From an uncultured virus (IMG/VR IMGVR_UViG_3300022468_000269) (taxonomy: Duplodnaviria; Heunggongvirae; Uroviricota; Caudoviricetes): 64,000 nucleotides of DNA. The first letter of the stretch is position 1. Each line of letters opens with the position of its first letter. A program made the translations under genes and the position numbers. Below are positions 27,254 through 46,684 of this stretch, one piece after another. The notes below the pieces were generated by a model. That model was not told the DNA's origin and searched no databases. It saw only the letters and a list, made by a program, of their open reading frames with translations. The stretch lies in IMG/VR virus record IMGVR_UViG_3300022468_000269, one strand, 5' to 3'.

Positions 27254-29460
27254 CGCTTACGCTCGTAACGGTATCGGGCCAAGTGACTTTGCCGGATGGT
27301 TCAACCCCCACAAGCGGGAAAATAATCTTCAAACTGGCGCGCTGGGATAGCGAGGGAAGCGCAGTTGTTATCCCCGACAAGGTGCAGGCGGCCATAACAG
27401 GCGGCAATGTCTCCGTCGAAGTGTGGGCATCAGCCGAAGGCGAGAATGATGTTTATTACCAGATCATCGCGCAATATTATTCCACTGAGTTTCGGCGGAT
27501 CGTGGATGTGGTTTTGGCGCAATCTGTCAGTGTTCCGGCGCTTTCGCCTGTCAATCTGTCGTCGCTGATCGAGCAAATCTATATCCCCGAGGTGCGGCAA
27601 TCGGTGATCGGCGTTGTCCGAGCCGACCGCATACTTGCGCAGGACGCAGCGACCCGTGCCGAGGCCGTAGTGCCATTCGCCAACGTTGCGGAAGTCATCA
27701 GCGATACAGGCTTTTCCTACAGCACTGTAACGACGGGGCAGATCCTGCGCACGGCGGATGAGGGTTTCGCCTATGAGGTGGCGGCGTCCGGGGCGTCAGA
27801 TCACGACATAACAACGGCAGGCGGCGTCAAGCTATATGTGCAACCTGTGGCGGGCCAGCTTCCATTGCTTGCATTCGGAAGCCCTGGCGACGGGACATCA
27901 GATTTTTCCGCTGCCGTCCAAAAAGCCTTAAATGCTGCGGCAACGCGCGGCATCATGGAAATTGTAGCCCCCGCTGGGCGGTATGGTATCGGAACAGCAA
28001 TTGCATGGCCGCAATTGGCGTCTGTCCGCATTGTCGGGATGGGGTATAAACTCCTGCCCATTATCGGGACGCTATCTGAGAAACGGGGCGGAACTTGGTT
28101 CCGTCGCATCTCTGATGTGGCAATTTTTGACATGACTGGCGTTAGCAGCTTATCAGGTGGCCCGCTGACGCACAGGCCAAATTTATCTGGTTTGTTGCTT
28201 GATGGGGCTGGGCTTACGGCCCCTCTAATTGAGGCGCATTCTTGCACTGAATTGGTTGTCGACAACTGTGGCTTTATCGGAGTGGATGGTGTCGGCATAG
28301 ACGCCTTGGAGTTATTCGACAGCAGATTCACCAACTGCCGGTTTACAGAAATGGGCAAAGCGGATGGCACTGCTTGTATAGCTTTGCGCTCTGGCTTTGA
28401 CGGGCGAGAGTCCTCTAACCAGATTCATTTTACTGGGTGCGTTTGGGAAAGCTTTCCGGGCAGCGCCATATCTGCGAGAAAGTTTGATTCCGGCTCCATT
28501 GATGTAAACGAGATTTATTTTACGAACTGCAAAATGGAAACTGCAACCGGGGCAACGCCAATCCTTGATTTGCAGGATGTGTCAGGGATACACTTTGGGC
28601 TGTTACAACTAGCTTTGGCGGGTGACGTATCCGACACCATAGCCTCTCTTGTGTCTTTTACAGATTCGTCGGACATTTCTGGAACATTGCACGTCGAACT
28701 TTTCCGATCCACCGGGGCTACAGTTACCAATCATGTAGTTCTAACCAACTGTGCAAACGTTGCCTTGCAGGTTTTTGATTATGGGGAACGCGATGTTGCA
28801 TCGGGCATTTCGTGTTCGTCAAGCGTTGTGAACCCGTCAATCCAGTATGATTATGTCGGCTTGCTGAAGACGACAGTCGGAACAAGTTTCTCGCCTTTCA
28901 TAAATTCCCGAGGTCGCGGAAGATTGCAGGGTAAATCGGCGTCCCCGGCGTTGTTGCTGGACCGCAGCGATATAGCCGACGAACTGTGGGATTTGGCTGC
29001 GATTAGCGCAGATGGTGCCGGTTCCCGCTGGGAAATTACCCACAACGGAACACCCGTTCTCCGTATTAACGATGACAATACGATAACAAACCTCTTTGCG
29101 ATGGTGTTGGGGGCATCGGTCAATGTCAACAATAACAGGCTGGCAAATATTTCCGCAATGAGTCGAAATGCTTGGGCTATAATCACGAGTATTGCGGGTG
29201 GTGTTCTGGCTTGCGCTAATGACGACCATATTGTTGTGAACGCTAGTGGGGGAGGGAACGTTACTGATATAACGTCAAGTTTGTCAGGCATTCCTACCGT
29301 GACAATTAGAAACGTTGATGCGTCAGCGGTTACGTTTGTTCACAACACATCGAAGCTTCGTTGTATAGGTGCGGTGGATAAGGTCGTCAACCAGCATGAG
29401 TCAATCCAATTTGCCTTGGTTAGCGGGACTATCTGGCAGCAGGTTGGTGGTAAGGTATAA
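27250..29460 (+). CDS. tailspike / polysaccharide depolymerase (beta-helix)
   Basis: FGSPGDGTSDFSAAVQKAL...PAGRY pectate-lyase-like cap followed by beta-helix rungs; GC falls after ~27850. Confidence 0.8.
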   Translation: MTLTLVTVSGQVTLPDGSTPTSGKIIFKLARWDSEGSAVVIPDKVQAAITGGNVSVEVWASAEGENDVYYQIIAQYYSTEFRRIVDVVLAQSVSVPALSPVNLSSLIEQIYIPEVRQSVIGVVRADRILAQDAATRAEAVVPFANVAEVISDTGFSYSTVTTGQILRTADEGFAYEVAASGASDHDITTAGGVKLYVQPVAGQLPLLAFGSPGDGTSDFSAAVQKALNAAATRGIMEIVAPAGRYGIGTAIAWPQLASVRIVGMGYKLLPIIGTLSEKRGGTWFRRISDVAIFDMTGVSSLSGGPLTHRPNLSGLLLDGAGLTAPLIEAHSCTELVVDNCGFIGVDGVGIDALELFDSRFTNCRFTEMGKADGTACIALRSGFDGRESSNQIHFTGCVWESFPGSAISARKFDSGSIDVNEIYFTNCKMETATGATPILDLQDVSGIHFGLLQLALAGDVSDTIASLVSFTDSSDISGTLHVELFRSTGATVTNHVVLTNCANVALQVFDYGERDVASGISCSSSVVNPSIQYDYVGLLKTTVGTSFSPFINSRGRGRLQGKSASPALLLDRSDIADELWDLAAISADGAGSRWEITHNGTPVLRINDDNTITNLFAMVLGASVNVNNNRLANISAMSRNAWAIITSIAGGVLACANDDHIVVNASGGGNVTDITSSLSGIPTVTIRNVDASAVTFVHNTSKLRCIGAVDKVVNQHESIQFALVSGTIWQQVGGKV

Positions 29461-37081: not shown

Positions 37082-37110
37082 ATTATAGATCAGTCCTTCC
37101 ATGTTGTCAA
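37082..37110 (-). promoter_or_regulatory. consensus sigma70 promoter overlapping the 3' end of a mini-ORF
   Basis: TTGACA-acatggaaggactgatc(17)-TATAAT. Confidence 0.85.
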
Positions 37111-37293
37111 GTGTGTTGTTGCTAGGACTGTACGTTCAGTGGTGTTTTGTAGGGTGTTGTATTTGTAGTCGTCTATCCATAGGAAATGTCTATAGCTAGC
37201 TGAGTGCGGTCTGAAGTGGTCCCTAATACCCACATATTTATAACTCTTTGGATTATCACTGAACTGTATAATACCCTGCTTCTCTACTTCCAT
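37090..37293 (-). CDS. mini-ORF family member (67 aa, divergent)
   Basis: MEVEKQGIIQFS...VLATTHLTTWKD. Confidence 0.65.
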   Translation of the reverse strand: MEVEKQGIIQFSDNPKSYKYVGIRDHFRPHSASYRHFLWIDDYKYNTLQNTTERTVLATTHLTTWKD

Positions 37294-37454
37294 GTGCTTA
37301 TCTCCGTAGGGCCAAGGAGTACATAACCGTTATAGCTATTGATGAGCATGGTTTCTAATGAGTTGACTCCAGTAGCACAGTTACGCCAAGACAACCCCGT
37401 GTTCGATGATACACCGTAAGGTATCCTAGTGTACTTATCATTCTTGATTATCAT
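37284..37454 (-). CDS. mini-ORF family member (56 aa)
   Basis: Manual translation MIIKNDKYTRIPYG...GYVLLGPTEISTWK. Confidence 0.75.
   Translation of the reverse strand: MIIKNDKYTRIPYGVSSNTGLSWRNCATGVNSLETMLINSYNGYVLLGPTEISTWK
37290..37324. repeat. direct repeat copy 1 (3' motif of mini-ORF)
   Basis: ccatgtgcttatctccgtagggccaaggagtacat; 26 of the first 27 nt identical to 39171-39197. Confidence 0.9.
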
Positions 37455-37621
37455 TTCCAGAATCCTAACTCTACTGGGGCTACCTTGGTGTCTTCAGCCC
37501 CTACACTCGTAGTCTGCTTGTAGAGTGTTAGTTCATTAAGAACATAGAATTTACAGTTACTTTGTATCAATGTTCTAACACTTCTAAAAGATGACTTATA
37601 GATACCAGTTCTATCACTCAA
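37451..37621 (-). CDS. mini-ORF family member (56 aa)
   Basis: TTG start overlapping polA stop; SDRTGIYKSS...KVAPVELGFWK. Confidence 0.7.
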   Translation of the reverse strand: MSDRTGIYKSSFRSVRTLIQSNCKFYVLNELTLYKQTTSVGAEDTKVAPVELGFWK

Positions 37622-38634
37622 TGGCTCTCTCCCCAGTTTCTACCAAGCTTACCTTCGATACCCATAGGGCAGAACAGGTTGAGTCTCTTGTTCACCCTGT
37701 CCATAGCCTCATGTTGTATCTGGATAAGTCTGTCTCCATCTTCCTTGGTCTGTACTTCTACCTGAACTTCATCATGTACAAAGTCTACATGTCTAAACCA
37801 CAGTCCCTCTGCTCTGGCTTGCTTACGCCATTCAACAACCCAATGCTTTGCAATAACACTCTCACCATTCTGTAGGTAACCAGCAAGCATCAAGTGCTCA
37901 GAGTTGCAATTAACTTTCCTACCATCAAGACCAATGAAGTAACCACGACTAGCATCAGTAGGAATCTTGAAGTCCTTAAGCTTCTTGAGTTCAGGGAAAG
38001 CCTCAAGGAACTTGTTACAAGCATCAGCAGCTTGCTTGATAGAGCAGCTAAGAATCTCTGCCACCTTAGGTACAGAGGCACCTAGTAGCCAAGCATAGAT
38101 GAATGTTTTACTGGTGTCTCTGTCTTTACACACTGAGCCTAGAGCACCCATATTAATGGTATGGATATCAGTACCAGCTTTCTTGTCACCACGCATGATA
38201 GCTGTACGCCATGTATCAGACTTCATGTAGCAGGTAAGGACACGTAGCTGTGCAGAGTCAAGGTCAGTACCTACAAGCCAGTGTCCCTCATCTACACCCC
38301 ACAAGGCACGAAGGTTGTAGTCGTACTTAGCCTTGACTTCCTCTACGGGGGTCTTAGGGTCACCGTGGAAGGGAGAGAAGATGTTAGCTTGATTAGGAGA
38401 GCTATGAGACATACGACCACTCCAAGCACCGATACCCCAGAACTTACCATGAATACGAGAGTCCTCTTCAGAGACACATCCTAGCCACTCTACAAGGCTC
38501 TGCTTACGTCCGTTAAGGGTGAGCCACTTGGCTAGGTCAGAGGCTTCCTTAGGGGCGCTGGAGGGGAGTGTGTTAAGGTTCTCCTCTGATGTCTTCCAAC
38601 CATACTTCTTGTAGTGTTCTGTCTTGTCTACCAT
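37618..38634 (-). CDS. polA: DNA polymerase A, C-terminal polymerase half
   Basis: SGRMSHSSPN, motif A DLDSAQLR, motif B RDTSKTFIYAWLLG, motif C VHDE. Confidence 0.92.
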   Translation of the reverse strand: MVDKTEHYKKYGWKTSEENLNTLPSSAPKEASDLAKWLTLNGRKQSLVEWLGCVSEEDSRIHGKFWGIGAWSGRMSHSSPNQANIFSPFHGDPKTPVEEVKAKYDYNLRALWGVDEGHWLVGTDLDSAQLRVLTCYMKSDTWRTAIMRGDKKAGTDIHTINMGALGSVCKDRDTSKTFIYAWLLGASVPKVAEILSCSIKQAADACNKFLEAFPELKKLKDFKIPTDASRGYFIGLDGRKVNCNSEHLMLAGYLQNGESVIAKHWVVEWRKQARAEGLWFRHVDFVHDEVQVEVQTKEDGDRLIQIQHEAMDRVNKRLNLFCPMGIEGKLGRNWGESH

Positions 38635-38819
38635 GCACTTATCTCCTTAGGGCCAATGAAATCCCACTTATACATCATAAACATACCATGCTCAGATTTC
38701 ATACAATCACTATAGTAATAGTCAGGTCCATAGTTTAGTGGGTAGTATTTTGTAGGACTCTTATGAAAGGTAATCTCACCAATATCCCTATCGCTAGCGT
38801 ACATCCCCAGTTCTACCAT
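38628..38819 (-). CDS. mini-ORF family member (63 aa)
   Basis: MVELGMYAS...FIGPKEISAW. Confidence 0.75.
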   Translation of the reverse strand: MVELGMYASDRDIGEITFHKSPTKYYPLNYGPDYYYSDCMKSEHGMFMMYKWDFIGPKEISAW

Positions 38820-38992
38820 GTCACCAACTCCTCTGGTCCTATTTTATAATGGGTACCTTTCATATCACTCCAAGGGCGTCTACGTATCATATCAAACTCT
38901 GTGGTATAACTTATTGTACTAGAGTTACAGATAAGATTCATGTAAGGTGTGTTAGGTTTCTTATACCATACTCCCATTTCTTTGCTTACCAT
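38813..38992 (-). CDS. mini-ORF family member (59 aa)
   Basis: MVSKEMGVWY...KIGPEELVTW. Confidence 0.75.
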   Translation of the reverse strand: MVSKEMGVWYKKPNTPYMNLICNSSTISYTTEFDMIRRRPWSDMKGTHYKIGPEELVTW

Positions 38993-39174
38993 TTGCATAC
39001 CTCACTAGGTCCAAGGTAGGCCCAACCGTTTTCCATAAACTCTTTATGGTCGGTATGTCTACATTGATAACAGCTAGTTCTGTGACTATTACTCAATTCA
39101 AAATACTCAATAAAACCATTCATAAAAGCTACCCTTTGACTACTGATGTACATACCCGGTTCGATGTCTACCAT
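38986..39174 (-). CDS. mini-ORF family member (62 aa)
   Basis: MVDIEPGMYISS...YLGPSEVCKW. Confidence 0.75.
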   Translation of the reverse strand: MVDIEPGMYISSQRVAFMNGFIEYFELSNSHRTSCYQCRHTDHKEFMENGWAYLGPSEVCKW

Positions 39175-39338
39175 GTGCTTATCTCCGTAGGACCAAGAAG
39201 AGTACATTTACTAGAAGTTTTATGCCTATAATAAGCACTCGCTATAGCTGTTGAATTATTAGGAGACTTAACCCAACCTCGAATTTTTCTAAGATTAAAC
39301 TTAGGTGCATAGATTACCTCATCAAATTTAATTATCAT
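39168..39338 (-). CDS. mini-ORF family member (56 aa)
   Basis: Manual translation MIIKFDEVIYAPK...CTLLGPTEISTW; ATGA overlap with polA-N stop. Confidence 0.75.
   Translation of the reverse strand: MIIKFDEVIYAPKFNLRKIRGWVKSPNNSTAIASAYYRHKTSSKCTLLGPTEISTW
39171..39207. repeat. direct repeat copy 2
   Basis: ccatgtgcttatctccgtaggaccaagaagagtacat. Confidence 0.9.
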
Positions 39339-40192
39339 TTACGTTTCTCCCTCAGGAATTTCTTGTGACCGTCAGTCATGTCTTTAGGTTTCCAACCAGC
39401 TTCCCAGAGAATGTCAATACGTTGTTGAGGGCTACCGGGATTGAACTCTTCATAGTCAAAACATATTAGGTCATCACCCTCAATCTTGGTAAGTGGGTAG
39501 CCTTCCATAGCATCGGTGACACTAGAGAACAAGCTACCATCTTTCTTGGTACGGTACTTGATACGCTTGACCTCAACTAACTTAGGTGGGAAGGCAGACT
39601 TGAAGCCATCCTCTAGCACCTTAATCTCTGACTCAATCTCCTCAAGCATAACCTTGGCCTTAGGGATATCAAACTTAAAGCCTTGCTTACCCATGTCATA
39701 GCAGACCATAGCTGTATCGTGCTCTACACGCATTGACAAGGCCCACGCAGGGTCATAAATCTGAGGCTTGTAGTGATTAAAGATAGCCTCAAGTACCTCT
39801 ACATCCTGCTCACCATACTCAATCATCTCTGGTGTACATTCATCCCAAGTACCAGTGTACTCACCCTTGAATACACCAAGGTATTCACCTAGTTCCTTGA
39901 GAGAATGAGTACTAAACTTGGAATAGTTAACTAGTTTGGAAACAACCATAGTATCAATGACAGAGAAAGGATTGATCAGACCTTCCTTGACCAACCTGTT
40001 GATCACCCAACAATCATAACCTAGACCGTTATGGAACACCCACTTGTCTGGTTGATAGAATGTAACCCATGCCTCAAAGGCTAGCATGTCAAAGAAGGTC
40101 ATAACAAATCCATCAAGAGTCTTGACCCTGATGAAGTGAATCTTAGTAGGTGTTAGGCCATTAGCTTCTACATCAGCTAGTACTATCTTCAT
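39335..40192 (-). CDS. polA: DNA polymerase A, N-terminal 3'-5' exonuclease and part of thumb
   Basis: ExoI DVEANGL, ExoII HNGLGYD, ExoIII YGEQDV, FNPGSPQQ...GWKP. Confidence 0.9.
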   Translation of the reverse strand: MKIVLADVEANGLTPTKIHFIRVKTLDGFVMTFFDMLAFEAWVTFYQPDKWVFHNGLGYDCWVINRLVKEGLINPFSVIDTMVVSKLVNYSKFSTHSLKELGEYLGVFKGEYTGTWDECTPEMIEYGEQDVEVLEAIFNHYKPQIYDPAWALSMRVEHDTAMVCYDMGKQGFKFDIPKAKVMLEEIESEIKVLEDGFKSAFPPKLVEVKRIKYRTKKDGSLFSSVTDAMEGYPLTKIEGDDLICFDYEEFNPGSPQQRIDILWEAGWKPKDMTDGHKKFLREKRK

Positions 40193-40403: not shown

Positions 40404-40601
40404 TCACTCCCATCTCCATACCTCCAAGGGGAGTACTCTAGTATAGCTTTTTAAAGTATGTTCACCAGTTTCGACATCCCACCCTTTACCACCAAGACTG
40501 TATTTAGCATCTCTAAATGATGTATACCAACCTTTGCTATCCTCTACATGACAAATATCACTGGCTTTAAATGAACCATAGATTCCATCTAGCATTACCA
40601 T
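40404..40601 (-). CDS. mini-ORF family member (65 aa)
   Basis: MVMLDGIYGS...RVLPLEVWRWE. Confidence 0.7.
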   Translation of the reverse strand: MVMLDGIYGSFKASDICHVEDSKGWYTSFRDAKYSLGGKGWDVETGEHTLKSYTRVLPLEVWRWE

Positions 40602-40774
40602 AGGCTCAACTCCTTTGGTGCAATGATGGTGGTCCATTCAGTCTTAGGTATAGTGTGGTGTGTACCATAAGCGTACAGTCTCTCAGCGTAAGCAATTGAG
40701 CTAGGCTGGACTCTACGATAAGCCTTACCAGTCCAGAACATAATAAACTTTCTACTAGTTGTGGTCTTAATCAT
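40595..40774 (-). CDS. mini-ORF family member (59 aa)
   Basis: Manual translation MIKTTTSRKF...TIIAPKELSLW; GGAGG SD; ATGA overlap with primase stop. Confidence 0.75.
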   Translation of the reverse strand: MIKTTTSRKFIMFWTGKAYRRVQPSSIAYAERLYAYGTHHTIPKTEWTTIIAPKELSLW

Positions 40775-42297
40775 ATCTCTACCTCCTCAAGGAGTGTTGT
40801 CTCAGGTGAGTAGTATACTGCACCAGCATAACCAAGCTTACTAAAGGGCCTATTTTTTTCCACAAAAAATTTGGTGGTGTTAGCCACATCCTCGTCTGGG
40901 TTCTCTTTGTCTCTCTCAATACGAATACAGATGATAGCCTCTTCCTCTAGGCTACGAGCATACTTGGTATGACCATCTTCATTAACGTGAGAGATAAGGA
41001 TGATACCTACATTCAGTTCTTTCGCCAGTTGCGCAAGATTAGCAGCAAGCTTAGTAAGTATGCTAGTTGCACCGTCAATACCACCCAAATAAGCGAGACG
41101 TTGTACGTGATCAACAAAGATGTAGTTAGCACCATACACACCGGCAGCAAGACGACAATACTCAAGTACTTCCATAGGCTCATCACCAGACCTCATTTCA
41201 AATACAATGGTTCGTTCACCCTTGGTAGCAGCTACAGCAGCAGCCTCTACTTCAGCCTCAGTAACACCACGTTCCTTAGCATCATCCTTGGTACGTACAT
41301 TCTTCTTCAGTTCGTAAGTAGCCATACAGCGATAGGTAGTGGACTTCTGTTCCTCCATATGCAGCAAGCCAATCTTGCAATCACTTGATGACAGTAGTCC
41401 TGTTTCTATATACCGGAAGAACTCAGTCTTACCCGATCCGGGTGGGGCCTTAAGGAATGTCAGGCCACCCTTAACCATACCACGGATAACACCATCAAGA
41501 CCCTTGTGGCCAGTAGGGGTATACTCATAGGGGTTCTCTTCACGAAGGATGGAGATAACCTTATCATCAGAGCAGAAGAAGTTATCTGGTGTCCACCGTT
41601 GGGGACGTAGTGCAGTCCACTTAAGCTCTGCCAGATCACCAGCCTGAAGGGCCTCGTTAGCATCCTTCCACTTGGTAAGGGGGATGTAGTAGAACTTGTG
41701 TGGAAGGGCCTTGTAGAGCCTGTCAGCAGCCTTCTTACCTGTCTTGTCTAGTTCACCAGCATACACTACCTCTTGGAATGTGTTGAGGTAGTCATACTGT
41801 TTCTTTACAAAATCATCCCCAATAGAGCCGGAAGGTAGGGACAGTACTGGCCAAGTTGAATCCATAGATTGATAGAGTGAAGCTGCATCGAACTCTCCTT
41901 CGGTGATATAGATACGCTTACTAGAAGCAGGGTTGACCTTAGGGCCAAAGAATTCTTTCATACCAACACCAGAATCTTTGATCCAAGAGTTAGCCTTGTT
42001 GTTATAGTCACGATATTTGACAGTGTGGGGATACTTGAAGGCATACCGTAGAGGCTTGCCTGTCTCGTCTAGTTGTAGTTGGATACCGTACTTCTCAGCT
42101 ACCTTAGGATCAAGACCACGAATGCCTTCATAGGTAACAGAAGATGGTTCCTTATTTTTGATGTTCACATAACTCTCCGTTTTTATTGTTCTGGTACATG
42201 AATGACAATAACCAATGCCATTAGAGAATAGGCTAAAGGAGTCATTGGCATGGCACTCAGGGCATTGTTGGTGTGTCTTGATAGGTGCTTCACTCAT
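40771..42297 (-). CDS. T7 gp4-like primase-helicase
   Basis: CPEC...CHSC Zn domain, ITEGEFDA, KDANE, APPGSGKT, FVDH, LISH. Confidence 0.92.
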   Translation of the reverse strand: MSEAPIKTHQQCPECHANDSFSLFSNGIGYCHSCTRTIKTESYVNIKNKEPSSVTYEGIRGLDPKVAEKYGIQLQLDETGKPLRYAFKYPHTVKYRDYNNKANSWIKDSGVGMKEFFGPKVNPASSKRIYITEGEFDAASLYQSMDSTWPVLSLPSGSIGDDFVKKQYDYLNTFQEVVYAGELDKTGKKAADRLYKALPHKFYYIPLTKWKDANEALQAGDLAELKWTALRPQRWTPDNFFCSDDKVISILREENPYEYTPTGHKGLDGVIRGMVKGGLTFLKAPPGSGKTEFFRYIETGLLSSSDCKIGLLHMEEQKSTTYRCMATYELKKNVRTKDDAKERGVTEAEVEAAAVAATKGERTIVFEMRSGDEPMEVLEYCRLAAGVYGANYIFVDHVQRLAYLGGIDGATSILTKLAANLAQLAKELNVGIILISHVNEDGHTKYARSLEEEAIICIRIERDKENPDEDVANTTKFFVEKNRPFSKLGYAGAVYYSPETTLLEEVEI

Positions 42298-42460
42298 CCC
42301 AGTAGCCTAACTCCTTCGGTCCAAGGACTACATCAAATTTATCAAAAGTTTGTATACTTCTTACACCGATTTGATGTTCGACATACTCTTCCCTTTTAAA
42401 GTACCTCCAAGTTTTACTAGAACTCATGTAAGCAGGTCTGTTAGAAACTAACTTAATCAT
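42290..42460 (-). CDS. mini-ORF family member (56 aa)
   Basis: Manual translation MIKLVSNRPAY...DVVLGPKELGYWDE. Confidence 0.75.
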   Translation of the reverse strand: MIKLVSNRPAYMSSSKTWRYFKREEYVEHQIGVRSIQTFDKFDVVLGPKELGYWDE

Positions 42461-42599
42461 CTGCATCTCCTAGATCAAAGTCTTCATACTCTAAGAAGTC
42501 TTCAGAGATTAGTTCATCAATCCAATCCTGACACTCTACACAGTACCAGTCAGTACCATCAAACTTGGCATCTGGTGCATCACAGCAATGGCATCTCAT
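42453..42599 (-). CDS. small acidic zinc-finger protein
   Basis: Manual translation MRCHCCD...YCVECQDWIDELISEDF... Confidence 0.65.
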   Translation of the reverse strand: MRCHCCDAPDAKFDGTDWYCVECQDWIDELISEDFLEYEDFDLGDADD

Positions 42600-44434
42600 A
42601 GGTTTACCTTTCCACCAGTCAGGAGATTGGAGAGTTGAGTGAACACAGCACCAGAGAGGTCATTGACATTGGTGATAGCAACACTCTTGGGGTACAGTCG
42701 GTTGACATGTTCTGTCTCAATACCGATACCTACACATTCTACACCATCCTTGACACACTCGTCAATAGCATTCTTGAGAGCAGCCTCAAGACTACCACGA
42801 CCGGGACCACCAATCATATCGTTAGCAGGTTGACCATCAGACAAGACCATAAGAATCTTACGCTTATGAGGCATAGCCTTCAGTTCTTCCTTAGCCCAGA
42901 GTACAGCATCACGGTCAGAGTTGTTACCACCAGCACAGTCACGGATAGCATAGACAGAACCTTTAGACACTTGAAGAGACTCATTGAACCCCTTGAATTT
43001 GTATAGGTTAAGAGGTTCATAGCGATGATAGGTAGAGCTAGAAGAATGTGCCTTACGTACAAGTTCATTTAGCTCAGTAGTGATACCAGAGTTCTCAAAG
43101 CCACTGATCTGGTACTTGATCTGCGTACCCTCAAGGCACTCAGCAAAGGCCATAACAGTGTCAGCAGCAGTACGTACACGGTCACCAGACATAGACCCAG
43201 AGAGGTCTACAAGCAGGTGTACAGCAGTGTCCTGCTCAAGACGATCTTGACGCATCTTGTAGACAGAAGGGCTACCTAGTACACCAGCTACCAGACGCTT
43301 AGTATCAAGACGACCAAACTCTCTACCAAAGTCCCAGTCACGCTGTTCTTTAGCCATAAGAGCACGGCGAAGTTTAGCCTTCATGGTGTTAACAAGACCA
43401 CCAAGCTGTACCTTGTGGCGCTCATAGTCAGCAGCATTGTTAGCCTTCATATTCTGCCAACGACGATTAGAACGAACAGGGGTTTTGTCACGAGTGTACA
43501 CTTCATCAAAGCGAGTAGACAGTACACGATATTTCTGGTAAGATTTAGCCTCTGGTGCATCATAGAACAAGTCTACCTGTTGCTTAAGGTAGTCCTTGAT
43601 CCATTCATTGCTGTCACCAGTAACTTTCATCTTACCACTAGCAGGACCGGGCATAGGCTTACCCTTAACCTTGTCAGGAACAGGCTTACCTTGTGTGATG
43701 TCTGCATTAGGGTCGTACTCAAAGTTCTCAGGGTCACCAGCAAGGCCCTCAACAGGCTTACCAGCAGCCTTATCTTTCTTGTCCTGCTCCTTATCAGAGT
43801 CAGACTTGGACTCTTCCTTAGTCAGCATCTTGTCAATCTCAATAGCCATATTCATTACTTGGCTAGAGTTCTCACACTTGTGTACTTCCTCAATCCACTT
43901 GTTACCCCATGCCTTCCACTCAGGGGTGAGCATGTCATACATCTCAGCATTAACATCACCACCATAAGACAGACGACCAGCACGAAGGATAGCAGCAGCC
44001 ACACCTTGCTCAGTCATACCATCGTATACATCTTTATGTTCTACCATGTCTGCTAGTTCTTTAACACCAACAGTCTGACTAAGCTGACGAAGGTTCTTCT
44101 CTGCACCGGGGTACTCAGCCATAACCTTACGCTCTAGCCACATATCCTCCAGACAATTCCAGATTTTATGTTGGCGCTCAGTGCTAGTGCTGGAGAATTT
44201 ACGGTGTGCCTCGAAGTCCGTGTGGCGTACATGACCTGCCTCATGGTCTACATAACCACGAAGAACCATAGCAGCCTCATGTGTAAGCTCTACGTTCTGG
44301 TCAAGAGAAGGAAGAACAATCTGCTTACCATCTGTATAAGCCCCATCACCTTCAAAGGCTAGAGTTACTTCTTTGTCACGCCCAAAGATAGCTGACGTGG
44401 TTACAAGTTCATGGACAAGTTCATGCGTTTTCAT
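42596..44434 (-). CDS. cobT: CobT-like protein (HExxH N-domain plus VWA domain)
   Basis: AYTDG...DHEAGH, MIDAS DLSGSMS, KILMVLSDGQP; start reassigned to MKTHEL. Confidence 0.75.
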   Translation of the reverse strand: MKTHELVHELVTTSAIFGRDKEVTLAFEGDGAYTDGKQIVLPSLDQNVELTHEAAMVLRGYVDHEAGHVRHTDFEAHRKFSSTSTERQHKIWNCLEDMWLERKVMAEYPGAEKNLRQLSQTVGVKELADMVEHKDVYDGMTEQGVAAAILRAGRLSYGGDVNAEMYDMLTPEWKAWGNKWIEEVHKCENSSQVMNMAIEIDKMLTKEESKSDSDKEQDKKDKAAGKPVEGLAGDPENFEYDPNADITQGKPVPDKVKGKPMPGPASGKMKVTGDSNEWIKDYLKQQVDLFYDAPEAKSYQKYRVLSTRFDEVYTRDKTPVRSNRRWQNMKANNAADYERHKVQLGGLVNTMKAKLRRALMAKEQRDWDFGREFGRLDTKRLVAGVLGSPSVYKMRQDRLEQDTAVHLLVDLSGSMSGDRVRTAADTVMAFAECLEGTQIKYQISGFENSGITTELNELVRKAHSSSSTYHRYEPLNLYKFKGFNESLQVSKGSVYAIRDCAGGNNSDRDAVLWAKEELKAMPHKRKILMVLSDGQPANDMIGGPGRGSLEAALKNAIDECVKDGVECVGIGIETEHVNRLYPKSVAITNVNDLSGAVFTQLSNLLTGGKVNL

Positions 44435-44435
44435 T

Positions 44436-44666
44436 TTATTCCCACCATACGAAGTTTTCAGGGATAGTGAAGGCATACTTCTTAGCTACTACATACTTAG
44501 TAAAACCTGTTTCACTCCAGTAAAGACCAGTAACTTTGTTTCGTTCGTTTATATTTTTAAACAAATAGTGTAATCCGTTTGGACTAAAACCACTAGAGGC
44601 TCTACCATCTTGAACATAATCGTATACTCCACTTTGGCTTATATAGACACCATTAGGATACTTCAT
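44436..44666 (-). CDS. mini-ORF family member (76 aa, divergent)
   Basis: MKYPNGVYIS...DGRASSGFSP...TIPENFVWWE. Confidence 0.65.
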   Translation of the reverse strand: MKYPNGVYISQSGVYDYVQDGRASSGFSPNGLHYLFKNINERNKVTGLYWSETGFTKYVVAKKYAFTIPENFVWWE

Positions 44667-44845
44667 TCCCATTTTAGTACCTCATGCGTTGCTAGAAGAA
44701 TAGGAAATCTTTCTTCCTCATCTTCTAGTGGCCAACTTAGTTCTCTATCTCTAATGTACCTGTATAGACTGGAGGGACTACAATAAGATGCACGACCATT
44801 ACTCACAAGTATAAAGCTATTCTTATCTTGACTTAGTAGTTTCAT
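44663..44845 (-). CDS. mini-ORF family member (60 aa)
   Basis: MKLLSQDK...NGRASYCSP...LLATHEVLKWE. Confidence 0.65.
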   Translation of the reverse strand: MKLLSQDKNSFILVSNGRASYCSPSSLYRYIRDRELSWPLEDEEERFPILLATHEVLKWE

Positions 44846-45054
44846 TTGTCCCACTCCATAAGTAGTGAAGGGGCCAACCTAATGGCCCACTTCGTTTTAT
44901 AAACACTATCGTAGTGTTCTGTTGGTCTTTTGGTACGTTTTAGAAAAGGGACTATCTTATCATTACCGGAGCCAAGACAACCCCTACTCAAACCCCAACA
45001 ATAGTAAATCTCACCATCTTCTGTACCCTTCCTCCAGAGTTCATTTAACAACAC
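44842..45054 (-). CDS. mini-ORF family member (~70 aa, start uncertain)
   Basis: ...GEIYY...RLAPSLLMEWDK. Confidence 0.55.
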   Translation of the reverse strand: MLLNELWRKGTEDGEIYYCWGLSRGCLGSGNDKIVPFLKRTKRPTEHYDSVYKTKWAIRLAPSLLMEWDK

Positions 45055-46684
45055 GGTCAATAATCCCTCGAATAACTGCATAGTCGGACTGGGTGGCACG
45101 ATCAAGCACAGTCATTTTAAGAGCCTCGGTCATGTTATCCTTACGACCACGGAAGACAGTATTAAGGTGGGCAACAGCTTTACCAACAGCCAACATACCA
45201 CGGGGGCTAATAGGTTGGAGAATCTTGGCATCTTGGAATGCCTTAAGATGTTCTTCAACATATTTGTTGATGATAATAGTCTCCCCATCAGTCAGGCCGG
45301 GATTGTGGCGAGAGAGCAGATCAGCCCGCTGTTCTTTGTTCAGATAGTCTACCTTACCCCAGATGGTGAAGCGATCAAGGAAAGCCAAGGATTGAGGCCG
45401 AGCACCTTGATACATACCATGCTCATCACCTTGTCCAACAGTGTTACCAGTGGCAAACATACGGAACATAGGATCAGGAGACACAAGACGCCCACCATCC
45501 TCAGTGATACGGAATGAGTTACCCTCAAGCACAGACTGCATCACATAGGCTACATCAGGACGGCAGAAGTCAATCTCATCAAAGGCTACAATGTAAGGAG
45601 ACTGCATCAGACGAGGCAAGATACCATCAACAAAGACAGACTTACCATCCTTGAGAGTATCCCGACCGATCAAGTCCATACGGGTAATCTCAGAGTCAAA
45701 GTTGATACGAGCAAAGGGCCAGTTAAGGTGCGCTGCAATCTGCTCAAGAAGAGTAGTCTTACCAGCACCAGTATGCCCTTGAAGATACATACGCTGATTG
45801 GATACGATAGCATAGAGAGCCTTAACAAGCAAGTCTTCACGGAAGATATAGTGAGGGTCAATGGTAGGCACATCAGGGTGAGCACCATCCCATTCCCATA
45901 CAGGGATATCAAAGGCAGCAGAGGTAGTCAAGGGGAACACTTTATCAATAGCCTTCATAACAATCTTACCAGAAGGAATAGTACCATCAGAGGTAACCTT
46001 AGTATCCTTGAAGGGCTTGGCAGCAAGTTCAGACTGAAGGCCACCAAGGGCATCCTTAAGAGACTGTACAGCCTTGTCACTAATCTTACGCTGTTCCTCT
46101 GCTTGTTTCTTGATAGTCTCCATCTGACCAGCAAGAGAACCAACAGACTTGAACCCTTCAACCACCTCATTCCAAGTAGGTTGACCGTAAGACTTAAGCA
46201 CAGTGTTAAGGATGTTCAGTTGCTCTGCACTAGAAGGAAGGCTAGGCATAATGACACCAGAAGGCACAGTAACCTCAGGTGTAGCTACACCACCAGCACG
46301 AGCAGCTTCAAGCTTACGATAAGAGTCAAAGAGAACCTCAACAAACTTATCCTCTTCAATATAGTTACAGACAATCTCTGCATCAGAAGGAGCAGCGAGA
46401 ATCTTTTCACAGTATTCACGATACGAGATGTGACCAGCAGCCATCATCAAGACAATGAACGGGGGTGTCCGCTCAGTAGCCTTATAGAACGTATCGCTAA
46501 CGTGTGCCTCTACCTTGTCATACAGATCAGGTTCAGTAGCCTTGATGATACGCTTAACAGCATGGCGAATCTTGCCACTGTCCCGCTCATGGCCTTCCTC
46601 TTCAATGGTGATTTTACCCTCTGCATTCTCAGTGAAGTTGATGTGCAGAAAGGGTGCGATTTCTTTCATCAGTTCAGTTGTCAT
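45041..46684 (-). CDS. cobS: CobS-like MoxR-type AAA+ ATPase with long N-terminal extension
   Basis: GHTGAGKT, RMDLIG, FDEID, FATGNTVGQGD...YQG...AFLDRF; start reassigned to MTTELM. Confidence 0.8.
   Translation of the reverse strand: MTTELMKEIAPFLHINFTENAEGKITIEEEGHERDSGKIRHAVKRIIKATEPDLYDKVEAHVSDTFYKATERTPPFIVLMMAAGHISYREYCEKILAAPSDAEIVCNYIEEDKFVEVLFDSYRKLEAARAGGVATPEVTVPSGVIMPSLPSSAEQLNILNTVLKSYGQPTWNEVVEGFKSVGSLAGQMETIKKQAEEQRKISDKAVQSLKDALGGLQSELAAKPFKDTKVTSDGTIPSGKIVMKAIDKVFPLTTSAAFDIPVWEWDGAHPDVPTIDPHYIFREDLLVKALYAIVSNQRMYLQGHTGAGKTTLLEQIAAHLNWPFARINFDSEITRMDLIGRDTLKDGKSVFVDGILPRLMQSPYIVAFDEIDFCRPDVAYVMQSVLEGNSFRITEDGGRLVSPDPMFRMFATGNTVGQGDEHGMYQGARPQSLAFLDRFTIWGKVDYLNKEQRADLLSRHNPGLTDGETIIINKYVEEHLKAFQDAKILQPISPRGMLAVGKAVAHLNTVFRGRKDNMTEALKMTVLDRATQSDYAVIRGIIDRVVK

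What the first reader, a model, noticed from the sequence alone, without database searches (positions are those of the whole stretch)
37618..40192. DNA polymerase A split in the thumb region by four tandem mini-ORFs rather than an intron, intein or homing endonuclease
Seen: the exonuclease half ends ...GWKPKDMTDGHKKFLREKRK* at 39335 and the polymerase half starts MVDKTEHYKKYGWK... at 38634. Both halves keep intact catalytic motifs. The ~700 nt between them is four head-to-tail ORFs with no non-coding gap. Known: phage polA interruptions are typically group I introns, inteins or HNH genes; none of those signatures is apparent here. Inference: a two-subunit PolA whose second subunit is made through a chain of coupled mini-ORFs, showing that these cassettes can enter an essential gene and be tolerated.
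Basis: partly seen in the sequence, partly recalled or inferred. Interest (0 to 1): 0.82.

Follow-up and report, generated by a model that had tools for sequence, protein, structure and literature searches.

The report
Two-piece phage DNA polymerase A
This SIO1-related phage makes its DNA polymerase as two separate proteins, cut in a tolerant loop at the thumb tip as many relatives also do; the four tiny genes in the gap belong to a genome-wide set of orphan proteins sharing one short tail of unknown purpose.

Summary
Observation confirmed: exonuclease/thumb half (40192-39335, 285 aa), four overlapping mini-ORFs (56, 62, 59, 63 aa), polymerase half (38634-37618, 338 aa); catalytic motifs intact, no residues lost. 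The break lies in a length-variable helical hairpin at the thumb tip, and split/fused switched at least 6 times on the tree. Best reading: a two-subunit PolA whose gene boundary is one of many collecting mini-ORFs. These are 4 of about 13 fast-evolving orphans here sharing a tail (hydrophobic-P-x-E-hydrophobic-x-x-W) that is selected as peptide and also supplies the next gene's ribosome site. Tail families track a CobS/CobT-like MoxR-vWA pair, with exceptions. Split phage polymerases with intervening genes are published (T4-like gp43, MEP401); my searches found no discussion of this site. The scan noted tail-plus-MoxR/vWA patterns before on other genomes. No reads or complex model were available.

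The parts
39335..40192 (-). PolA N-terminal subunit gene, 285 aa: 3'-5' exonuclease plus first half of the thumb; basic C-terminal tail
   Evidence: thumb assignment
39168..39338 (-). mini-ORF 1, 56 aa, tail LLGPTEISTW; last 33 nt 91% identical to the tail of ORF 37284-37454
38986..39174 (-). mini-ORF 2, 62 aa, tail YLGPSEVCKW
38813..38992 (-). mini-ORF 3, 59 aa, tail KIGPEELVTW
38628..38819 (-). mini-ORF 4, 63 aa, tail FIGPKEISAW; its last codons hold the ribosome site and ATG of the pol half
38643..38648 (-). Shine-Dalgarno-like AAGGAG, 8 nt before the pol-half ATG, in the Lys-Glu codons of the mini-ORF 4 tail
   Evidence: read from sequence
37618..38634 (-). PolA C-terminal subunit gene, 338 aa: second half of thumb, palm, fingers; motifs A, B, C intact
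40404..40774 (-). two further tail-bearing mini-ORFs (40595-40774, 40404-40601) after the primase-helicase
40771..42297 (-). primase-helicase, 508 aa, uninterrupted; starts inside the tail of mini-ORF 42290-42460
42290..42460 (-). tail-bearing mini-ORF (VLGPKELGYWDE)
37090..37621 (-). three mini-ORFs after the pol half (37451-37621, 37284-37454 with full tail; 37090-37293 with degenerate tail)
44436..45048 (-). three mini-ORFs between CobS-like and CobT-like genes (44842-45048, 44436-44666 with tail; 44663-44845 degenerate)
45041..46684 (-). CobS-like (MoxR-type AAA+) ATPase, 547 aa, with an N-terminal region of no known family; candidate reader of the tail, unproven
42596..44434 (-). CobT-like protein, 612 aa: N-terminal HExxH-type domain plus vWA domain with DLSGSM MIDAS motif; candidate reader, unproven

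Best explanation
The phage makes a family A DNA polymerase as two polypeptides that associate non-covalently. Shown: both genes are intact and complete, and the cut lies in the turn of a lineage-specific, length-variable helical hairpin at the thumb tip, a site that is split in many Cobavirinae-like phages with 0 to 4 small genes, a homing-type nuclease, or the primase-helicase gene between the halves. Inferred: the halves assemble through the two long thumb helices and the exonuclease-palm interface; each has its own start. The four mini-ORFs are not parts of the polymerase and most likely did not cause the split: they are members of a genome-wide set of about 13 fast-evolving orphan genes that fill gene boundaries of the replication arm, and their shared tail doubles as ribosome site and start for whatever gene follows, which lets them come and go between essential genes without cutting off translation.
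For: Same-site split without insert in cultured ICBM2 and CRP-5. Of distinct loci with both halves and at least 44% pol-half identity: 46 fused, 27 split-adjacent, 24 split with insert (incl. the window's own copy), 3 with the primase-helicase between; spacers 157-3204 nt. 114 of the 119 non-self top hits are stand-alone proteins of 331-347 aa (fused forms lie outside that search's length range). Linker 16+10 = 26 residues here against 21-40 in 47 fused relatives. Break maps between T7 gp5 D358 and K359 (counted) and to turn 281-283 between helices 276-280 and 284-293 in the model of natural fused relative L120, the lowest-confidence block (pLDDT 81); fold matches T7 gp5 (TM 0.75-0.79). Both halves under purifying selection: dN/dS 0.09 and 0.02 (L101/L178), 0.04 and 0.06 (L092/L097). 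24 of 29 adjacent splits start the pol half at an ATG spanning Tyr-Glu/Asp codons with a purine-rich site in Lys-Gly codons, so no cassette is needed. L120 is fused yet carries tail-type mini-ORFs; L115 and L125 are split without insert yet carry them elsewhere. In 30 clade loci the primase-helicase (21 of 21), CobS (13/13), SSB-like (24/24), Cas4-like exonuclease (19/19) and phosphoesterase (17/17) are single ORFs; the two exceptions (RNR 12/13, CobT 14/15) are an intron-like stretch and a region with N.
Against: No protein or transcript data; association of the halves is inferred. All 10 neighbours in the window's subclade carry inserts, and split forms are not one clade (AU p 6.7e-7, at least 6 changes), so a mini-ORF insertion as the cause in this one lineage, with later loss in L093/L115/L125, is not excluded. 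Deep branches of the quick tree are weakly supported. 27 of 29 adjacent splits share one relative frame, which would also fit a +1 frameshift in those relatives.
Confidence: 0.82

Rival explanations
1. One reading: tail-bearing cassettes inserted into an intact polA of this lineage and created the split, their 3' tail supplying the new ribosome site and start codon.
For: The tail does encode AAGGAG plus ATG of the pol half; the split has several origins or reversals; fused L120 and L130 fall among or near tail-bearing phages.
Against: 27 distinct loci are split at the site with no insert, 3 of them among the tail/CobS-clade phages (L093, L115, L125); no tail-type ORF interrupts any other large gene in 30 clade loci; in the Veravirus-like clade inserts are clearly later, e.g. 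L161 (HNH) beside insert-free sister L013.
Confidence: 0.12
2. One continuous polymerase is restored by RNA splicing, ribosomal bypass or protein trans-splicing.
For: No residues are missing; an RNR gene of relative L039 carries a probable group I intron that Rfam also missed, so the Rfam negative is weak.
Against: Gap fully coding, unstructured (z +0.96), GACTA/TAGTC in the wrong order for group I; spacer 157-3204 nt and sometimes holds the primase-helicase; half termini vary in length and show no intein Cys/His-Asn ends (intein features from my own knowledge).
Confidence: 0.03
3. On the tail: it is an address label read by the phage's CobS/CobT-like MoxR AAA+ and HExxH-vWA pair, which remodels, delivers or processes the small proteins.
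For: Hydrophobic positions -2 and -3 before Pro, not used to select the set, carry information at codon position 2 (0.71, 0.39 bits) with little at position 3 (0.24, 0.03); tail spelling is genome-specific while bodies are mostly unrelated (108 of 144 singletons); tail-minus-middle score median 8.1 in 15 loci with the pair against 0.6 in 37 without; L093, nested among them, shows neither in the 19 kb held.
Against: The correlation is largely one clade. CRP-810, ICP2 and the part of nickie examined have the pair but no visible shared tail; L133 has a shared acidic DL(F/L)Y tail on small proteins with no CobS/T hit in the locus; L115 has the pair and a low score (0.9).
Confidence: 0.3
4. On the tail: it is the last strand and turn of a small, very diverged beta-barrel fold shared by a paralogous family, and/or a 30-nt recombination and re-initiation module homogenised by gene conversion; no dedicated reader exists.
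For: Some members begin like KOW/SH3 barrels by eye (VGD-x-V in L106, L099, L133; motif recalled); within-genome paralog pairs exist (4 pairs); two window tails are 91% identical over 33 nt; Glu codon GAG 67 versus GAA 16 fits the ribosome-site role.
Against: The model of the tail family was uninformative (pLDDT 57, pTM 0.20); 118 of 119 such proteins hit no PHROG; a purely structural end does not explain genome-specific spelling, and a purely DNA-level module does not explain codon-position-2 conservation.
Confidence: 0.45
5. Assembly artefact or decayed gene.
For: The window joins two unrelated stretches near 29460 (GC 60% versus 44%); reads could not be examined.
Against: 19 other distinct loci of the clade show inserts at the same site; the halves are under purifying selection in relatives; the pol-half cluster stands on 7 contigs.
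Confidence: 0.02

Closest known systems
Split PolA of cultured Veravirus phages ICBM2 (MF431616) and CRP-5 (MK613347), and oyster phage T5S1-k141_653015 (PQ867845)
   Same: Same break after the GWxPxxKTxGH motif; two annotated CDS. T5S1 also has tail-bearing mini-ORFs and the CobS/T pair.
   Different: ICBM2 and CRP-5 halves overlap with no insert; T5S1 puts the exo half upstream of the primase-helicase. The word 'split' does not occur in the main text of the two describing papers (PMC6775973, PMC6918029; supplements not seen).
Split DNAP of OM43 phages MEP401/MEP402 (Zobellviridae; PMC10580990, passages read)
   Same: Family A polymerase in two ORFs with a small unknown ORF between, widespread in their group.
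   Different: Break is later, inside the polymerase domain (389 + 236 aa); single acidic 77-aa insert without the tail.
Bicistronic gp43 of T4-like Aeromonas/Acinetobacter phages (Petrov et al., known to me only through PMC3061061 passages)
   Same: Natural two-subunit replicative polymerase cut in a variable tip loop, subunit ORFs 2 bp to 3 kb apart.
   Different: Family B, fingers tip; here family A, thumb tip.
Split PolA of clade B T7-like cyanophages (P-SSP7, S-TIP37; PMC12695635, PMC3350473 passages)
   Same: Family A polymerase in two ORFs in cultured phages.
   Different: Break at the end of the exonuclease domain (180 + 423 aa), overlapping frames, frameshift not excluded; no insert.
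MoxR AAA+ / metallopeptidase-vWA pair of group 2.2 jumbo phages (PMC7824862, passage read)
   Same: AAA+ ATPase plus vWA protein with an N-terminal HExxH-type domain.
   Different: Proposed there for virion assembly; no tagged small proteins described; the ATPase here has an extra N-terminal region without known family.

Membership tests
Family A (T7 gp5-like) DNA polymerase | Exo I-III and motifs A, B, C with catalytic acids | tested here: met
Family A (T7 gp5-like) DNA polymerase | T7 gp5-like fold | tested here: met
   model of natural fused relative L120, TM 0.75-0.79 to T7 gp5; the window's halves themselves were not folded
Naturally split (bicistronic) phage DNA polymerase | Two ORFs covering the whole enzyme without loss, break in a variable loop | tested here: met
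Naturally split (bicistronic) phage DNA polymerase | Both halves maintained by purifying selection | tested here: met
   dN/dS 0.02-0.09 in two pairs of relatives; no close partner for the window itself
Naturally split (bicistronic) phage DNA polymerase | Two polypeptides that assemble into an active enzyme | not testable with these tools
   needs protein work; no complex model available for this window
Group I/II intron | Structured ribozyme core with ordered conserved elements | tested here: not met
   no Rfam match (weak negative), z +0.96, elements in wrong order
Intein or split intein | Hint domain with splice-junction residues at the termini | tested here: not met
   no Pfam hit; termini KKFLREKRK* and MVDKTEH
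Free-standing homing endonuclease insertion | HNH, GIY-YIG or EndoVII domain in the insert | tested here: not met
   none in the four ORFs; present at the same site in relatives L033, L158, L161
Programmed frameshift or translational bypass | Short fixed gap with conserved shift or hop site | tested here: not met
   700-nt coding gap, 157-3204 nt in relatives; not excluded for adjacent-type relatives
Integron-like gene cassettes | Palindromic non-coding att sites and a dedicated integrase | tested here: inconclusive
   no non-coding DNA between the ORFs and no long inverted repeat at the tails; the repeat is a coding direct repeat; integrase not searched for
Clients of a MoxR-vWA machine | Tail-dependent binding to the ATPase or vWA protein | not testable with these tools
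   only co-occurrence tested

The most novel reading that the evidence does not exclude
In one clade of SIO1-related phages, 10-16 hypervariable orphan mini-proteins per genome end in a genome-specific peptide label read by the phage's own MoxR AAA+/HExxH-vWA machine, and the same codons act as a portable ribosome site plus start codon, so the genes shuffle freely among replication-gene boundaries, including the boundary inside a two-subunit PolA that has split and re-fused repeatedly at its thumb tip.
Probability: 0.27. Interest if true: 0.78.

Novelty: new variant of a known kind. Interest (0 to 1): 0.45.

Why it matters
It names a natural, repeatedly used split point in the thumb of a T7-like polymerase, present in cultured phages (ICBM2, CRP-5) and so testable at once; useful for polymerase engineering and a warning for polA-based phage phylogeny and annotation, where halves get called pseudogenes or introns. 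It does not show that cassettes invade essential genes. The open question of more interest is the tail-labelled orphan family: near-neutral or diversifying bodies (pooled dN/dS about 0.7 against 0.02-0.09 for the polymerase halves) with a conserved tail suggest host-interaction proteins handled by one common partner.

Tried and rejected
Intron, intein, homing endonuclease, bypass: rejected. Internal promoter or terminator for the pol half: 11 promoter-like sites against 11.9 expected, two weak 9/12 matches in the insert, nothing convincing. Fold of the mini-protein family: uninformative; Atlas searches for mini-ORF 4 and the CobS N-terminal region gave no usable hit; CobS 1-235 has only 7 homologs. 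No complex model and no read mapping could be obtained for this window, so binding of the halves, binding of the tail and expression stay open. Whole-record check for CobT in five metagenome contigs was not possible, so its absence in L093 and L133 holds only for the stretches fetched. The regex count of tails misses variant spellings (L120, L123, L127, L116 seen by eye), hence the unbiased test, which left out loci with under 5 small ORFs or under 5 kb upstream (L120, L116, L130 among them). The third AU test did not finish. The start-site script had a frame bug, redone. Literature searches that found nothing on this site or the tail family: 0 papers; precedents at other sites only; subscription journals are not covered.
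Full report
Setting. The window joins two unrelated stretches near position 29460 (GC about 60% before, 44% after). The second is a Cobavirinae-like phage: its pol half is closest to T5S1-k141_653015 (57%), ICBM2 (52%), CRP-9, CRP-13, CRP-5, CRP-4 and SIO1 (42%) among phage records, and its replication arm carries CobS/CobT-like genes, a primase-helicase, the polymerase, a Cas4-like exonuclease and a phosphoesterase.

Observation. Confirmed as written. The exonuclease half runs 40192-39335 (285 aa), four ORFs of 56, 62, 59 and 63 aa cover 700 of 700 nt, and the polymerase half runs 38634-37618 (338 aa). All six catalytic motifs are present and the halves tile PHROG 17 end to end. The insert has no Pfam or convincing PHROG family, no Rfam match and no unusual RNA structure. 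The Rfam negative is weak on its own, because the same search missed a probable group I intron in the RNR gene of relative L039, but the two short core elements that lie in order there lie in the wrong order here. Record L001 is identical over 13,014 nt but may come from the same assembly; reads were not available.

Where the break lies. Aligned through fused CRP-4 to T7 gp5, the break falls in an insertion of about 18 residues between T7 D358 and K359 (counted), just after the thioredoxin-binding region at the thumb tip (domain names from my own knowledge). In a confident model of the natural fused relative L120 (pLDDT 93.7, TM 0.75-0.79 to T7 gp5) this insertion is a two-helix hairpin, and the split corresponds to its turn, residues 281-283, in the least confident block. 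The linker is 21-40 residues in 47 fused relatives and 16 + 10 here, so nothing is lost. One long thumb helix (174-198) stays with the first half, the other (311-334) with the second; that they pair and hold the enzyme together is inference.

The split does not depend on mini-ORFs. Cultured ICBM2 and CRP-5 are annotated as two overlapping CDS broken at the same place; T5S1 places the exo half before the primase-helicase, 2.7 kb from the pol half. Of 169 loci with a pol-half hit, 92 were fused, 60 split and 17 lacked the exo region (duplicates included). After removing duplicates and the distant L085, and keeping at least 44% identity: 46 fused, 27 adjacent, 24 with insert, 3 with the primase-helicase between. 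Of 119 non-self top protein hits, 114 are 331-347 aa (fused proteins are outside that search's length range). In 24 of 29 adjacent loci the pol half starts at an ATG spanning Tyr-Glu/Asp codons of the other frame with a purine-rich site in the Lys-Gly codons, a latent start that lets one indel split the gene. On a 64-row tree split and fused change at least 6 times and a single split clade is rejected (AU p 6.7e-7), so this is a hot spot. Both halves are under strong purifying selection in two pairs of relatives (dN/dS 0.02-0.09). In the Veravirus-like clade the same boundary later took EndoVII (L033, L158) or HNH (L161) genes. Against this reading: all 10 neighbours in the window's subclade carry inserts and deep branches are weak, so insertion as the trigger in this lineage is unlikely but not excluded; and 27 of 29 adjacent splits share one frame, so frameshifting in those relatives is open.

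What the mini-ORFs are. They are 4 of about 13 in this genome: 11 end in P-x5-W and two are degenerate; P-x5-W occurs once in 3579 residues of the large proteins. They sit at gene boundaries from CobS to past the polymerase, where 17 of 19 junctions overlap; the primase-helicase also starts in such a tail. Related phages carry up to 16, each genome with its own spelling (IPKEY in L106, PxEFL in T5S1, GPxxLxxW in L092/L097). Bodies are mostly unrelated (108 of 144 singletons; 4 within-genome pairs) and orphan (118 of 119 without PHROG hit; 119 of the 139 candidates at hand were sent). Six orthologous pairs of L101/L178 stay open but evolve fast (dN/dS 0.46-1.2; about 0.7 pooled by hand). The tail is constrained as peptide (codon-position-2 information at -2 and -3, positions not used for selection) and as ribosome site (GAG 67, GAA 16). 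In 30 clade loci none interrupts another large gene. L120 has them with a fused polymerase; L115 and L125 have them with an insert-free split. So the polymerase boundary is one of many places where they gather.

Who reads the tail. Tail sharing, scored without a motif, has median 8.1 in 15 loci with the CobS/CobT-like pair and 0.6 in 37 without, and L093, nested among them, shows neither in the DNA held. But this is mostly one clade; CRP-810, ICP2 and part of nickie have the pair without visible tails (by eye), and L133 has a different shared tail next to amidotransferase/ligase-like genes (labels by eye and recall) with no CobS/T hit. The CobT-like protein has an HExxH-type N-terminus and a MIDAS motif, like the jumbo-phage pair of PMC7824862. 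I put a dedicated MoxR/vWA reader at 0.3 and a structural or recombination/re-initiation role at 0.45. I reached the label idea; the scan's notes then showed the same pattern reported on other genomes, unchecked and not counted as support; one of them supplied the structural rival.

Comparison with what is known. It works like the bicistronic gp43 of T4-like phages, whose subunit ORFs lie 2 bp to 3 kb apart (PMC3061061), and like PhiKZ's two-gene polymerase, shown to form a 1:1 active heterodimer split within an insertion (10.64898/2026.09.30.755723). Split family A enzymes are known in clade B T7-like cyanophages (break after the exonuclease) and in MEP401/402, with a small unknown ORF between, at a later site. 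The thumb-tip site is visible in GenBank annotation, but 'split' does not occur in the main text of PMC6775973 or PMC6918029, and searches found no account of this site or of the tail family. For all eight papers I read term-matched passages only, no supplements; gene tables there may mention the split. Petrov et al. 2006/2010 I did not see.

Verdict. Real; a new variant of a known kind. The two-subunit reading stands (0.82), the cassette-invasion reading largely falls. Interest 0.45, carried by the recurrent thumb-tip split and the unexplained tail-labelled orphans; 0.78 if the label-and-reader system proves true (probability 0.27).

Noticed in passing
window ~29460: Abrupt change from GC about 60% to 44%; the window looks like two unrelated phage sequences joined.
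   Followed up: partly
L039:16269-16453: Ribonucleotide reductase gene interrupted by about 185 nt with GACTA and TAGTC in group I order; probable small group I intron not detected by Rfam.
   Followed up: partly
L133:4987-11243: Seven small proteins share an acidic DL(F/L)Y(Y) tail, interleaved with amidotransferase/ligase-like and replication genes; fused PolA, no CobS/T hit in the locus.
   Followed up: partly
L085:3243-3683: Separate PolA split in a distant group, about one helix further along the thumb, with a 356-nt spacer.
   Followed up: no
L033:6199-6636, L158:462-899, L161:2095-2484: EndoVII and HNH genes inserted at the same boundary between the polymerase halves.
   Followed up: partly
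L003/L169, L101, L117, L178: Exo half lies upstream of the primase-helicase gene, 2.5-3.2 kb from the pol half.
   Followed up: yes
window 37110-37082 (-): Perfect TTGACA-17-TATAAT promoter match inside the last mini-ORF, upstream of the 36474-36974 gene.
   Followed up: no
window 42453-42599 (-): 48-aa CxxC...CxxC protein with acidic tail, found near the primase or CobT gene in many relatives.
   Followed up: no
window 39335-39370 (-): The free C-terminus of the exo half is basic in most split forms (mean net charge +2.5 over the last 12 residues, 55 loci); it may touch DNA or the start of the pol half.
   Followed up: partly
window 46000-46684 (-): N-terminal ~235 residues of the CobS-like ATPase have no family and only 7 homologs at E 0.001.
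   Followed up: partly
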